Below, piece by piece: positions 1,454 through 3,436 of a stretch of 64,000 nt of DNA. Positions within the stretch are counted from its first letter, which is position 1. Every line of letters begins with the position of its first letter. The DNA comes from a virus (lineage: Duplodnaviria > Caudoviricetes). The notes under the pieces are model-generated. The model was given only the letters and a program-made list of their open reading frames with translations, did not search any database and had not been told where the DNA came from. Position numbers and translations under genes: made by a program. The stretch covers positions 4,671-68,670 of IMG/VR virus record IMGVR_UViG_3300048895_000267; one strand, 5' to 3'.

Positions 1454-2233
1454 ATGGGCAAGCTGCATGAAATCCTTGCGGTCGAAAAGACCGTCGAAGA
1501 AGCCAGCAACAAGATCATTTCCGAGACCAACGCCAAGTTCGGCAAGGTCGACGCCTACTTCGCCGGCGGCATCAAGACGCTGGAGCTGCTCGAAGAAGGC
1601 CTCGCCAACAAGGCCATCGAAGCCGCGGCCGAGCAGAAGGCCGAACTGGTCACCACCGTGCACGAGACGCTCGACTACGCCCTGAACTACTGGGCCAACG
1701 CCGAAGACGTGAAGTTCCAGAAGGACTCCACGAACCAGCGCGCGATCGCCGACATCGTCGTCGATGGCGAAGTGCTCGCCAAGGACGTGCCGGTCGACAC
1801 CCTGCTCGGCCTCGAGGCTCGGCTGGTCACGCTGCGCAATACGTTCTCGCTGATGCCCACGCTCAACGCGGCGGTCGAGTGGGTACCGGCTGACGTCGGC
1901 GGCCTGCGCGGCGCCGTGCGCGCCAAGGACCCGATGGTCCAGACCAAGACCGAGAAGACCGTCGGCGCCGTCGTGCTCTACGATGCCACCGACAAGCACC
2001 CGGCCCAGCTGGAGAAAGTCACCAACGACAAGGTCGTGGGCACGTTCACCACCGTGCGCTTCTCCGGCGCGGCCAGCACGATGCAGAAGGCCGAAGTGAT
2101 CGCGCGCACCGACAAGCTGCTCGTGGCCGTCAAGCAGGCGCGCATGCGTGCCAACTCCGTCGAAGCCAACGACGGCAAGCTCGGCGCCGACATCAAGAAC
2201 TTCCTGCTTGCGCCGTTCAGCACCACGCACTAA
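1454..2233 (+). CDS. Conserved hypothetical protein, DUF7873-like (259 aa)
   Basis: GGGG RBS; biased codons; motifs KLHEILAVEK, ADIVVDG..LAKDVPV..LL.LE, ATDKHPAQ, TTVRFSGA, QARMRAN resemble the family as I recall it (not searched). Confidence 0.75.
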   Translation: MGKLHEILAVEKTVEEASNKIISETNAKFGKVDAYFAGGIKTLELLEEGLANKAIEAAAEQKAELVTTVHETLDYALNYWANAEDVKFQKDSTNQRAIADIVVDGEVLAKDVPVDTLLGLEARLVTLRNTFSLMPTLNAAVEWVPADVGGLRGAVRAKDPMVQTKTEKTVGAVVLYDATDKHPAQLEKVTNDKVVGTFTTVRFSGAASTMQKAEVIARTDKLLVAVKQARMRANSVEANDGKLGADIKNFLLAPFSTTH

Positions 2234-2403
2234 GCTTCGCATTGCTGCACCAGCACAGCTATCGGCTCACCGTTGAAAGAATACGGACAAGGCGGCCCGA
2301 CTGACAAAAGGCTGGTGCAGCTTCACTTCACGGGGGGACCCGGGAGTAAGTCCTCGCAGCTCACGCTGCCAGCCTACTGCTCCCGGGAACCTCCACCAGT
2401 TTC

Positions 2404-2518
2404 GAAGTCGGGAAGGTGGGCTTAAAAACAGCCATCCTTTAAAGAGTGGAGAAGACCCCTCACCAGAACATCGGAAGGATTAACGTCAATCCTTTAGCGT
2501 CACAGCACACCTGACTTC
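2404..2518 (+). ncRNA. Mimic of the 23S rRNA H43/H44 (L11-binding, GTPase-associated centre) with a 49-nt insert
   Basis: 2414-2448 matches E. coli 23S 1057-1091 at 28/35 and 2498-2510 matches 1092-1104 at 10/13 (E. coli sequence from memory); two compensatory changes. Confidence 0.8.
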
Positions 2519-2674
2519 GGATTCACTTCAAGGCATCCGTTATCGTTATCGTCAACGTTATGTCCCGAACCTCTATCGAAGAGGGGAAGGCGTCTCGTCC
2601 TCGTATCGCCTTGACACGTTCATCGTAATACCACGCAACAAGTACCGAGAGAGTCTCCGGCAGTAGCCGGGAAA

Positions 2675-2771
2675 CCCGTGCATCGGTGGTTCGAATCCAT
2701 CCGGCCCAGCCAAAGCGCTCTTATCCAAGAGTTCTTCGGTGGGCCGTAGCCAAGTGGTCTAAGGTAGCGGG
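2675..2771 (+). tRNA. Circularly permuted tRNA(Gln)-like domain: 3' half 2675-2712 precedes 5' half 2740-2771; no anticodon loop
   Basis: Acceptor TGGGCCG/CGGCCCA 7/7 plus G-CCA; T arm GGTGG-TTCGAAT-CCATC; D arm GCC-AAGTGGTCTAA-GGT; anticodon stem GCGGG/CCCGT. Confidence 0.8.
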
Positions 2772-3070
2772 TACCTTCTTTATCGTCCCTACTCTCGTCG
2801 GACACGACTTGCGTTGATATCCAGCTCTTAAGTGAGCACCGGACTATTAATCCGATCGATATGGAGGCCCGAGGGGCAGCGGCGAAGCCGCCCCTCGGGT
2901 ACCTCTTTCAAGCGCATTGACTCAGTGCTCTTGAACGAGGTACCACCATTCCTAAGCGGTAGGCAGCGCAGCCGAGCGCAAGTGGTTCACGGGGCATAGT
3001 GAGTAGGGCCGCCGTTCGACACGGCATCCCGCCATATCGGAAGCCACCGCTTTTTTCTTCGGAGCATCTC

Positions 3071-3436
3071 ATGTACCACAACGGCCAAGTCGTGCACAAC
3101 CTGCGCACCGGCGAACCTTGCCTCGTCAGCGACGAGGACGAAGACAGCCTGTTCGTATGGAAACAAAACGACGACACGGTGCACTACATCGAGCGCAATC
3201 CGAAGTACGACGACATGCCGAAGCCACCAAGCTACGCCACTGGCTTCCCACCGTCCGTGCAGATCAACGGCCATGAGTACCGCTACGCTGACTACCGTCG
3301 CGAGCAGGAATACTCCATCGCCACGCCGAAGACAGTCGAAGAAGCCGTACGCCTACTCGCTGACGGCCTGATCCAACCTGCCCCCCTGTCCCCCGAATAC
3401 CTTGCCCGGAGAAAAAAGCATGAACACGCAACGTGA
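3071..3436 (+). CDS. Hypothetical protein
   Basis: Start moved to ATG 3071 behind GGAG at 3061. Confidence 0.7.
   Translation: MYHNGQVVHNLRTGEPCLVSDEDEDSLFVWKQNDDTVHYIERNPKYDDMPKPPSYATGFPPSVQINGHEYRYADYRREQEYSIATPKTVEEAVRLLADGLIQPAPLSPEYLARRKKHEHAT

What the first reader, a model, noticed from the sequence alone, without database searches (positions are those of the whole stretch)
2642..2775. Circularly permuted tRNA(Gln)-like domain lacking an anticodon loop
Seen: the 3' half comes first: CCCGT, GCATC, T arm GGTGG-TTCGAAT-CCATC, CGGCCCA-G-CCA (2675-2712). A 27-nt linker with a small hairpin follows, then the 5' half TGGGCCG-TA-GCCAAGTGGTCTAAGGT-A-GCGGG (2740-2771). The acceptor stem is 7/7, with U1-A72 and G73 as in bacterial tRNA(Gln). 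The flanking RNA enters and exits through the anticodon stem. Established: this topology is known from two-piece tmRNA genes and from permuted tRNAs of some algae and archaea. This is not tmRNA-like, since it has no G3-U70 and has a full D arm. Inference: RNase P plus 3' trimming could cut out the linker, giving a two-piece RNA with a mature CCA end, or the domain is a non-decoding tRNA decoy. Standard tRNA finders would miss it.
Basis: partly seen in the sequence, partly recalled or inferred. Interest (0 to 1): 0.86.

Follow-up and report, generated by a model that had tools for sequence, protein, structure and literature searches.

The report
Phage tRNA-mimic RNA beside DUF7873 gene
The back-to-front tRNA is real: it is the core of a roughly 375-base folded RNA that follows one protein gene of unknown function (DUF7873) in many phages and bacteria, built like the known YrlA tRNA mimics but without their Ro60 protein, and I found it in no RNA library or paper I searched.

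Summary
Observation confirmed. Window 2675-2771 encodes a circularly permuted cloverleaf. Its order is AC-like 3' strand, variable region, T arm, acceptor 3' strand, G73-CCA, 27-nt linker, acceptor 5' strand, D arm, AC-like 5' strand. It has no anticodon loop.

It is not chance. A permuted tRNA-like element lies downstream of a DUF7873 gene, on the same strand, in 36 of 37 phage contigs and 73 of 80 bacterial loci chosen by the protein alone. Covariation is heavy: 91% of cells paired against 59% in shuffles. The Levitt 15:48 pair covaries in 119 of 125 domains.

The element sits in a ~375-nt RNA (about 2526-2905) with a CGUUAU hexamer track, conserved flank motifs, closing helices and a terminal hairpin. 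DUF7873 is the only conserved neighbouring gene.

It is not a tmRNA, not a decoding tRNA, and not a YrlA/Ro60 member. The phage has no Ro60, and Rfam's YrlA model does not match the element. A model built from these elements does find genuine YrlA RNAs beside Ro60 at separate loci in other genomes, so the two are sister designs.

Best reading: a Ro60-independent tRNA-mimic RNA-protein module. Binding and RNase P/CCA processing are inferred, not shown.

This scan has noted the same DUF7873-RNA pair on many other genomes.

The parts
1454..2233 (+). DUF7873 protein gene (259 aa), the only conserved gene partner of the RNA
   Evidence: Pfam PF25283, E 1e-67. An intrinsic terminator at 1389-1414 lies upstream of it, and none was found between the gene and the RNA. 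The AlphaFold2 model has pLDDT 90, with no convincing known fold.
2532..2561 (+). Conserved leader GGCAUC followed by a track of four tandem hexamers (CGTTAT CGTTAT CGTCAA CGTTAT, 2538-2561)
   Evidence: Runs of at least 3 CGT at a 6-nt period occur 9 times within 350 nt of the element in phage loci and 0 times in the other 203 kb. The leader and track align with L005, L008, L010-L012, L014, L016 and with the Burkholderiales loci.
2570..2584 (+). Short hairpin (CCTCT-ATCGA-AGAGG) at the place where two-domain relatives carry a first tRNA-like domain
   Evidence: Alignment with L039-L043; MFE/centroid fold.
2590..2632 (+). Second CGU-rich track and the conserved motif GUAUCGCC..ACA..CG..AUCGU
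   Evidence: Conserved columns in A3 and A6. RNAalifold pairs the first hexamer with the CG.UAUCG part, with few covariations.
2633..2638 (+). 5' strand of the closing helix (ACGCAA), pairing with 2809-2814 (TTGCGT)
   Evidence: MFE and centroid fold of 2526-2905. The equivalent CACG/CGUG helix appears in the ribosum alifold of A3.
2645..2654 (+). 5' strand of the inner helix (CCGAGAGAGT), pairing with 2791-2801 with one bulged G
   Evidence: Read from the sequence and predicted.
2656..2671 (+). Variable hairpin (CCGGC-AGTA-GCCGG) just before the tRNA-like domain
   Evidence: A hairpin of variable sequence and length sits at this position in relatives.
2675..2684 (+). AC-like stem 3' strand CCCGT (pairs with 2767-2771) plus the 5-nt variable region GCATC with C48
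   Evidence: This helix has changes on both sides at all 5 pairs in 124 bacterial sequences.
2685..2701 (+). T arm (5-bp stem, loop TTCGAAT)
   Evidence: 99.7% of cells paired.
2702..2712 (+). Acceptor 3' strand CGGCCCA, discriminator G, encoded CCA
   Evidence: Acceptor helix 99.6% paired, with all 7 pairs covarying.
2713..2739 (+). 27-nt linker with a 5-bp hairpin. Its ends (AAG / CUUCGG) can pair with CCA and so extend the acceptor stem. It would be the excised piece if RNase P cuts before 2740.
   Evidence: Linkers are 4-34 nt among the CCA-type phage loci, and many end in UAU or UGG.
2740..2771 (+). Acceptor 5' strand TGGGCCG, U8 A9, D arm, A26, AC-like stem 5' strand GCGGG
   Evidence: U8 is present in 123/125 domains, and 15:48 is G:C or A:U in 119/125.
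2772..2814 (+). 3' flank: an unpaired stretch with a UAUCGU hexamer (2781-2786; relatives read UUAUAUCGUUA), then the 3' strands of the two closing helices
2868..2899 (+). GC-rich terminal hairpin, the likely 3' end of the RNA. No T run follows, so termination is not shown.
   Evidence: Relatives have a GC-rich hairpin at the same position, just before the next gene.
2408..2467 (+). 23S rRNA helix 43/44 (GTPase-associated centre) look-alike in the 300 nt between the gene and the RNA. Whether it belongs to the same transcript is unknown, and it is not part of the family design.
   Evidence: LSU rRNA model local match, 28.8 bits, E 3.6e-7. Absent from the other DUF7873 loci.

Best explanation
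The flagged element is the tRNA-shaped core of a ~375-nt structured non-coding RNA (about 2526-2905). This RNA is encoded directly after, and probably co-transcribed with, the DUF7873 gene (1454-2233). Together they form a self-contained two-part module found in many phages and bacteria. The domain folds into a true L-shaped tRNA body (acceptor/T and D/AC-like arms with the usual tertiary contacts), but it is wired back to front. The rest of the RNA enters and leaves where the anticodon loop would be, so the domain cannot decode.

Shown here: the structure, its covariation, its link to DUF7873, and its independence from Ro60.

Inferred: (1) DUF7873 binds this RNA, perhaps as several copies on the single-stranded CGU-hexamer tracks that flank the domain, giving an RNA-protein particle. 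(2) The acceptor end is treated like a pre-tRNA end. RNase P would cut before U2740, and 3' exonucleases would trim back to the encoded CCA at 2712. The result would be a nicked two-piece RNA held together by the acceptor and closing helices, as shown for M. smegmatis YrlA. (3) The exposed tRNA body then engages tRNA-binding host factors (modification or processing enzymes, nucleases, or translation factors) on behalf of the phage.

In design it is a sister of the Ro60/YrlA Y-RNA particles with a different protein partner.
For: Structure:
- ARAGORN accepts the rejoined halves as a tRNA.
- RNAalifold on 12 relatives recovers all four stems; 20 of 29 pairs covary.
- A covariance model built only from phage copies aligns 124 distinct bacterial sequences with 91.2% of cells paired, against 59.5% in shuffles and at most 49% when slid, with 785 double changes.
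- U8 is present in 123/125 domains. The Levitt pair 15:48 is G:C or A:U in 119/125, where 62 would be expected.

Link to DUF7873:
- A permuted domain lies 60-1200 nt downstream on the same strand in 36/37 phage loci.
- The same holds in 73/80 bacterial loci picked by protein alone.
- No other protein family recurs near it in 117 loci.
- In whole-genome searches of five bacteria, the model hits next to the single DUF7873 gene in 4 of 5.

Ro60 independence:
- No TROVE gene in this 93%-complete phage.
- Two of the five bacterial genomes have none. Where Ro60 exists, it sits at a different locus with its own model-positive RNAs.

Larger RNA:
- Conserved leader, hexamer tracks, flank motifs and terminal hairpin.
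- 2526-2905 folds with z = -4.2.

End processing:
- CCA follows the discriminator in 29/43 phage and 22/83 bacterial domains, against about 1.6% by chance.
- G is at +1 in about 77% of all domains. U at -1 is common.
Against: - There is no direct evidence that the RNA is made, cut, or bound by DUF7873.
- CCA is absent from a third of phage domains and most bacterial domains, so a free CCA end cannot be a universal requirement.
- In this window the linker pairs with CCA, which may hinder RNase P.
- The strict CGU-hexamer track is confined to a phage subgroup and was not found in the bacterial loci, so the idea of protein binding on the track does not generalise.
- The DUF7873 model shows no recognisable RNA-binding fold.
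- One of five bacterial genomes, and 7 of 80 bacterial loci (some cut off by contig ends), show no adjacent element.
- The covariance model also hits elsewhere in the genomes, at tandem tRNAs and at loci with unknown partners.
Confidence: 0.6

Rival explanations
1. A closed, unprocessed tRNA mimic. The acceptor hairpin stays capped by its linker, as in Salmonella YrlA. The RNA works as one piece, and the CCA is kept for another reason, such as recognition by a protein or pairing with the linker.
For: In this window and in L002, L004, L018-L020 the CCA pairs with a UGG at the linker's 3' end, giving a continuous hairpin. CCA is missing in 14/43 phage and 61/83 bacterial domains. Salmonella YrlA and D. 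radiodurans Yrn1 are not cut by RNase P (PMC4201824).
Against: If pairing were all that mattered, any sequence would do. Yet CCA sits exactly one base after a 7-bp stem in 29/43 phage domains, including those whose linkers are too short to pair (4-10 nt, often CCA...UAU|G). A 7-bp acceptor stem is the feature that made M. smegmatis YrlA an RNase P substrate.
Confidence: 0.25
2. A cis-acting 3' processing or stabilising element of the DUF7873 mRNA, in the manner of MALAT1/mascRNA. RNase P would cut at the tRNA-like structure to set and protect the mRNA 3' end, and the RNA would have no job of its own.
For: The element lies on the same strand immediately after the gene, with no terminator between them. 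tRNA-like features that attract RNase P are present.
Against: The RNA carries far more conserved structure than a cleavage signal needs: two tandem domains in many relatives, conserved flank motifs, closing helices, and full tertiary-contact covariation. The same model finds YrlA-type RNAs, which are known to be stable and protein-bound.
Confidence: 0.08
3. A two-piece (permuted) tmRNA-like RNA that is charged and rescues or hijacks ribosomes.
For: Same gene order as two-piece ssrA. Local match to Rfam beta_tmRNA over T arm, acceptor strand, linker and acceptor strand (28.9 bits, E 5e-7). Encoded CCA.
Against: The score is far below the gathering score of 84, and only 65 of 331 model positions match. 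ARAGORN finds no tmRNA. No G3:U70 here or in any of 43 phage domains. There is a full D arm and an AC-like stem. No conserved tag reading frame follows; the three frames downstream are dissimilar to tags, and what is conserved there is an RNA motif. The discriminator and acceptor vary freely.
Confidence: 0.03
4. A permuted or split gene for a real decoding tRNA(Gln), matured by circularisation or splicing as in Cyanidioschyzon merolae; or mere debris of tandem tRNA genes.
For: The halves rebuild a good cloverleaf with Gln-type acceptor features.
Against: The bases flanking the AC-like stem are a conserved motif (UUAUAUCGUUA in relatives, UACCUUCUUUAUCGU here), not two parts of an anticodon loop, and there is no U33. 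No bulge-helix-bulge motif or intron signature was found at E up to 10. Debris would not covary across more than 100 loci or keep a fixed place after one gene.
Confidence: 0.02

Closest known systems
YrlA (Y RNA-like A, Rfam RF02553) with Ro60/Rsr, above all the M. smegmatis and mycobacteriophage forms (Chen et al. 2014, PMC4201824; Wang et al. 2018, bioRxiv 10.1101/312249)
   Same: Same permuted order (variable region, T arm, acceptor-like stem-loop, D arm) joined to the rest of the RNA through the anticodon-stem position. tRNA tertiary contacts are kept, including a covarying 15:48 pair. The RNA is encoded next to its protein gene on the same strand and also occurs in phages. M. smegmatis YrlA has a 7-bp acceptor stem, is cut by RNase P and carries CCA. 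My model built from DUF7873-linked elements scores genuine Ro60-adjacent RNAs at 28-56 bits.
   Different: No Ro60/TROVE gene in this phage, nor within 3 kb in 117 loci. The partner is DUF7873, an unrelated 250-aa protein. Rfam's YrlA model gives no match on the element. The GNCGAA Ro-binding motif is absent near the 5' end. CCA is genomically encoded rather than added. The family has its own flank motifs and hexamer tracks.
Two-piece (circularly permuted) tmRNA of alpha- and some beta-proteobacteria and cyanobacteria (Rfam RF01849-RF01851)
   Same: The gene encodes the 3' tRNA-like half with CCA first, then an excised spacer, then the 5' half. The pieces stay paired after processing. There is a partial model match.
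   Different: No G3:U70, no tag reading frame, no pseudoknot series; a full D arm; a variable acceptor identity; and linkage to a protein gene other than smpB.
[quoted passage not shown]
   Same: The idea of a tRNA-like non-coding RNA that partners with a protein other than Ro60.
   Different: As summarised there, it strongly resembles an authentic tRNA, and its partners are a Band-7 protein and RtcB. Neither Band_7 nor RtcB is present in this phage. I did not read the original paper.
Permuted tRNA genes of Cyanidioschyzon merolae and some archaea
   Same: The 3' half is encoded before the 5' half, with a short linker at the acceptor end.
   Different: Those mature into decoding tRNAs with a rejoined anticodon loop. 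Here no anticodon loop exists, and the flanks are a conserved structured RNA.

Membership tests
YrlA / bacterial Y RNA (Ro60 partner) | Encoded within a few kb of a Ro60 (TROVE-domain) gene, same strand | tested here: not met
   No TROVE match at E up to 10 in the 68.7-kb, 93%-complete phage. No recurrent neighbour other than DUF7873 in 117 loci.
YrlA / bacterial Y RNA (Ro60 partner) | Reaches the Rfam RF02553 gathering score (69 bits) | tested here: not met
   No RF02553 match on 2200-3200 at E up to 10. The whole-phage search gives only 11.1 bits, at an unrelated place. None reached gathering in 20 related loci.
YrlA / bacterial Y RNA (Ro60 partner) | tRNA-like domain in the order V, T arm, acceptor-like stem-loop, D arm, with tRNA tertiary contacts | tested here: met
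YrlA / bacterial Y RNA (Ro60 partner) | GNCGAA(N)G motif near the 5' end (putative Ro60 contact) | tested here: not met
   The only + strand GNCGAA between 2234 and 2905 is GGCGAA at 2881-2886, in the 3' terminal hairpin loop (L001 1782-1787). That is a chance-level count, and relatives lack it.
Two-piece tmRNA | G3:U70 alanine identity pair in the acceptor stem | tested here: not met
   G3:C70 here; 0 of 43 phage domains have G3:U70.
Two-piece tmRNA | Tag reading frame with resume codon, and full model match | tested here: not met
   No tmRNA by ARAGORN. beta_tmRNA scores 28.9 bits against a gathering score of 84, covering 65 of 331 positions. No tag-like frame was seen. The downstream region conserves an RNA motif, not a reading frame.
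Two-piece tmRNA | Permuted gene order with internal CCA and excised spacer | tested here: inconclusive
   The order and the CCA are present. Excision could not be tested.
Permuted decoding tRNA genes (C. merolae type) | Flanks supply the two parts of an anticodon loop and a splicing motif | tested here: not met
   The flanks are conserved non-anticodon motifs without U33. No intron family was detected.
b7a-tRNA system (Burroughs and Aravind 2016) | Adjacent Band-7 domain protein and RtcB ligase | tested here: not met
   No Band_7 or RtcB match in the phage at E up to 1.
DUF7873-linked tRNA-mimic RNA (unnamed family defined here and in earlier notes of this scan) | Permuted tRNA-like domain within about 1.2 kb downstream of a DUF7873 gene, same strand | tested here: met
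   Gene 1454-2233; domain 2669-2787 at 68.9 bits with model R1, though it is a seed member. The rule holds in 36/37 phage and 73/80 bacterial loci.

The most novel reading that the evidence does not exclude
DUF7873 and this RNA form a previously unknown particle whose tRNA body is opened by RNase P to expose a genuine CCA end. In this phage the RNA is joined in one transcript to a copy of the ribosome's GTPase-centre RNA (2408-2467). The particle would act as a decoy or sensor for factors that recognise tRNA and the ribosomal factor-binding site, for example host defence nucleases, stringent-response enzymes or translation factors, and so protect or reprogram translation during infection.
Probability: 0.12. 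Interest if true: 0.9.

Novelty: new variant of a known kind. Interest (0 to 1): 0.72.

Why it matters
tRNA mimicry by non-coding RNAs is known from tmRNA and from the Ro60-bound YrlA RNAs. Here the same inside-out tRNA design is coupled to a different, uncharacterised protein. That protein is present in at least 588 of the species-representative bacterial and archaeal genomes scanned, and in many phages, often inside phage tRNA gene clusters. If the pair is a particle, it is a widespread and unstudied RNA-protein machine that probably touches tRNA or translation biology in phage-host conflicts. It would give DUF7873 its first functional handle. The encoded CCA and 7-bp acceptor stem make a simple prediction (RNase P cleavage, two-piece RNA) that can be tested in days.

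Tried and rejected
- Tandem-tRNA debris: rejected by covariation and by ARAGORN finding no tRNA at these sites.
- Natural permuted intron-exon or spliced tRNA: rejected. No group I or BHB signal, and the flanks are conserved motifs, not anticodon-loop halves.
- tmRNA: rejected.
- Cas7-like backbone protein reading 6-nt repeats: Foldseek's top weak rows were Cas7 chains (E about 0.01, TM about 0.14). None survived the VIA-align second look, and the wide search gave only generic helical matches of Z 9.2 or less. The lead was dropped.
- Sequence profile of DUF7873 against the PDB: only coiled-coil noise.
- PHROGs: no family for DUF7873.
- ESM Atlas: no informative neighbour.
- CGU-hexamer track as a family-wide feature: rejected. 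It was found only in a phage subgroup, not in the 80 bacterial loci.
- A second tRNA-like domain in this window: none at E up to 1. Comparison with Burkholderiales relatives suggests the first domain was lost.
- Literature: no paper mentions DUF7873, and nothing describes a permuted tRNA-like RNA with this partner.
No expression, end-mapping or oligomer test was therefore possible.

Full report
**What is there.** The window is most of a 68.7-kb virus contig, 93% complete. It is a tailed phage. The replication module (primase-like DUF5906, SNF2 helicase, family A polymerase) is on the + strand, and the structural module with a P22-like portal is on the - strand. Between the end of a 259-aa gene (1454-2233) and the next plausible gene (about 3072) lie about 830 bases without a credible reading frame.

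- AC-like 3' strand, 2675-2679
- variable region, 2680-2684
- T arm, 2685-2701
- acceptor 3' strand, 2702-2708
- G73 and CCA, 2709-2712
- 27-nt linker, 2713-2739
- acceptor 5' strand, 2740-2746
- U8 A9, D arm, A26, 2747-2766
- AC-like 5' strand, 2767-2771

ARAGORN and Rfam at curated thresholds see nothing in the native order. When the halves are rejoined around a dummy loop, ARAGORN returns a normal 77-nt tRNA. At a relaxed threshold the only relevant Rfam match is a local one to the permuted beta-proteobacterial tmRNA model. It covers T arm, acceptor strand, linker and acceptor strand at 28.9 bits, against a gathering score of 84.

**It is conserved, and tied to one gene.** The upstream gene is a clear member of Pfam DUF7873 (E 1e-67). 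Using only this protein I fetched 37 phage contigs. A strict pattern scan asked for a 5-bp T stem, a T loop, a 7-nt strand, and within 120 nt its perfect complement followed by a D-loop signature. It finds a permuted tRNA-like element shortly downstream of the gene, on the same strand, in 36 of the 37 contigs. Acceptor sequences are entirely different from locus to locus. Several loci have two such domains in tandem. ARAGORN calls no tRNA at these places, although DUF7873 often sits inside true tRNA arrays.

The same protein profile finds at least 588 loci among species-representative bacterial and archaeal genomes. The nearest relatives of the phage protein (about 50% identity) are in Burkholderiales assemblies. 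A covariance model built only from 33 phage elements hits 73 of the 80 best bacterial loci, nearly always 60-1200 nt after the gene on its strand. At least three of the seven misses are contigs that end at, or less than 200 nt after, the gene.

On the 124 distinct bacterial sequences:
- 91.2% of cells form standard pairs, against 59.5% in shuffles and at most 49% when partners are slid.
- There are 785 double changes.
- The acceptor and T helices are more than 99% paired.

The alignment was fitted to the model, which favours it, but the margin is very large.

Independent of the model, U8 is present in 123 of 125 domains. The tertiary Levitt pair 15:48 is G:C or A:U in 119 of 125, where 62 would be expected if the two positions were independent. 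This is therefore a real tRNA-shaped fold, not a chance cloverleaf and not tRNA debris.

**The element is the core of a larger RNA.** In the twelve closest phage loci the region after DUF7873 has one plan:
- a leader (GGCAUC-like)
- a run of CGU-started hexamers
- a conserved motif (GUAUCGCC..ACA..CG.UAUCGUGAGG)
- a closing helix
- a variable hairpin
- the permuted tRNA-like domain
- a conserved UUAUAUCGUUA stretch
- the return strand of the closing helix
- a GGGGAAACC-like motif
- a GC-rich terminal hairpin just before the next gene

In this window the corresponding parts are:
- hexamer track 2538-2561 (CGTTAT, CGTTAT, CGTCAA, CGTTAT)
- second track and motif 2590-2632
- helices 2633-2638/2809-2814 and 2645-2654/2791-2801
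- hairpin 2656-2671
- hexamer 2781-2786
- terminal hairpin 2868-2899

The stretch 2526-2905 folds at -145 kcal/mol, z = -4.2, and the minimum-energy fold recovers most of these helices. Runs of three or more CGT at a six-base period occur nine times near the element in phage loci and never in the remaining 203 kb. They were not found in the bacterial loci, so they are a subgroup feature.

The Burkholderiales relatives carry two tRNA-like domains. The alignment suggests that this phage has lost the first one and keeps a short hairpin (2570-2584) in its place.

**What it is not.**
- Not a tmRNA: no G3:U70 here or in any of 43 phage domains, a full D arm, no conserved tag frame, and a partial model match only.
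- Not a permuted gene for a decoding tRNA: the bases next to the AC-like stem are a conserved motif, not anticodon-loop halves, and no splicing signal was found.
- Not a member of the YrlA/Ro60 family as defined. The phage has no TROVE gene. No Ro60 gene recurs within 3 kb in 117 loci. Rfam's YrlA model gives nothing on the element or at gathering score on 20 related loci. The GNCGAA motif is missing from the 5' part.
- Band-7 and RtcB, the partners of the predicted b7a-tRNA, are also absent.

**What it works like.** The nearest known thing is YrlA, the bacterial and phage Y RNA. Its effector domain is a tRNA mimic with this same back-to-front order. Its M. smegmatis form, which has a 7-bp acceptor stem, is cut by RNase P and carries CCA in vivo (PMC4201824).

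A whole-genome test makes the relation concrete. In five bacterial genomes my model hits next to the single DUF7873 gene in four. It also hits, with similar scores, next to the Ro60 genes at separate loci in the three genomes that have Ro60. Two of the five genomes have no Ro60 at all. So the DUF7873-linked RNAs and YrlA share one architecture, but they are separate systems with different proteins.

**How it most likely works.**

Shown: the fold, its conservation, the gene linkage, and the independence from Ro60.

Inferred:
1. DUF7873 binds the RNA. It is the only conserved neighbour. The RNA starts within tens of bases of its stop codon in relatives. No terminator separates gene and RNA here.
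2. The acceptor end is handled as a pre-tRNA end. CCA follows the discriminator in 29 of 43 distinct phage domains and 22 of 83 bacterial ones, against about 1 in 64 by chance. This holds even where the linker is only 4-10 nt. G is at +1 in about three quarters of domains, and U at -1 is frequent. Cleavage before 2740 and trimming to 2712 would give a two-piece RNA held together by the acceptor and closing helices.
3. The exposed tRNA body then engages tRNA-binding factors.

Against (2): many members lack CCA, and in this window the linker pairs with CCA. I put the processing step at about even odds.

The DUF7873 model is confident (pLDDT 90). It shows long helices plus a long beta-hairpin whose tip carries the invariant T..HPAQ residues (positions 179-185). 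It has no convincing structural relative. A weak Cas7 signal in Foldseek did not survive re-alignment.

**The tRNA(Gln) label.** U1-A72, G2-C71, G3-C70, G73 and G10 are in the sequence. The most similar of 47 phage tRNAs compared was a tRNA-Gln, by a small margin. Across the family the acceptor and discriminator vary freely: in phage domains the discriminator is U 17, A 14, G 9, C 3. Amino-acid identity is therefore not a conserved property. Without an anticodon, efficient charging by GlnRS is unlikely; that statement rests on my own knowledge of GlnRS and was not tested.

**Novelty.** I found no Rfam family and no paper in the searched library that describes this RNA or DUF7873. The concept of a Ro60-independent tRNA-like RNA with another protein partner exists in print as the predicted b7a-tRNA (bioRxiv 10.1101/312249). 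Earlier notes of this scan report the same DUF7873-RNA pair on many other genomes: 144 notes from at least 91 genomes. I reached the YrlA-like reading and the DUF7873 link before opening those notes, and I tested the claims above independently. I class it as a new variant of a known kind: a YrlA-style tRNA-mimic RNA with a new protein partner.

**Limits.** The 80 bacterial loci are the best-scoring of at least 588, so the pairing rate may be lower among distant members.

Noticed in passing
window 2408-2467 (within the 2234-2537 spacer): A look-alike of 23S rRNA helices 43/44, the L11-binding GTPase-associated centre. It matches the LSU rRNA model locally at 28.8 bits, E 3.6e-7, with its closing helix. 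A 39-nt core (2411-2449) is 95% identical to an unannotated spacer between tRNA-Trp and tRNA-Arg in the tRNA array of Pseudomonas phage UNO-G1W1. It is absent from the other 117 DUF7873 loci. The whole 2234-2537 spacer is strongly structured (z = -5.1).
   Followed up: partly
window 2820-2865: A window-specific insertion in the 3' part of the RNA, not present in the 11 aligned relatives. It folds into two small hairpins. Another first-reader note reads them as an orphan D arm plus an anticodon-arm-like hairpin with loop CUAUUAA. I did not test that reading.
   Followed up: no
window 2898-2944: A near-perfect 47-nt hairpin (GGTACCTC...GAGGTACC) directly after the terminal hairpin of the RNA. 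It gave a spurious miRNA-precursor match. Its function is unknown.
   Followed up: no
G004 (genome of L107, Bernardetia sp.) C1:2738584-2739749, - strand: Three high-scoring permuted tRNA-like hits (55-58 bits), spaced about 520 nt apart. They lie about 135 kb from the only DUF7873 gene, in a genome without any TROVE gene, and no element sits next to DUF7873 itself. This may be a permuted tRNA mimic with yet another partner, or one acting in trans.
   Followed up: no
L002, L003, L019 (jumbo-phage contigs): The DUF7873 gene and its double tRNA-mimic RNA are embedded in arrays of 14 canonical tRNA genes per 6.7-kb locus. This points to co-expression with the phage's tRNA set.
   Followed up: partly
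window 1-26000 versus 26000-64000: The early/replication arm (+ strand genes) has about 60% GC and a strong A-over-T skew. The structural arm (- strand genes) has 65-70% GC.
   Followed up: no
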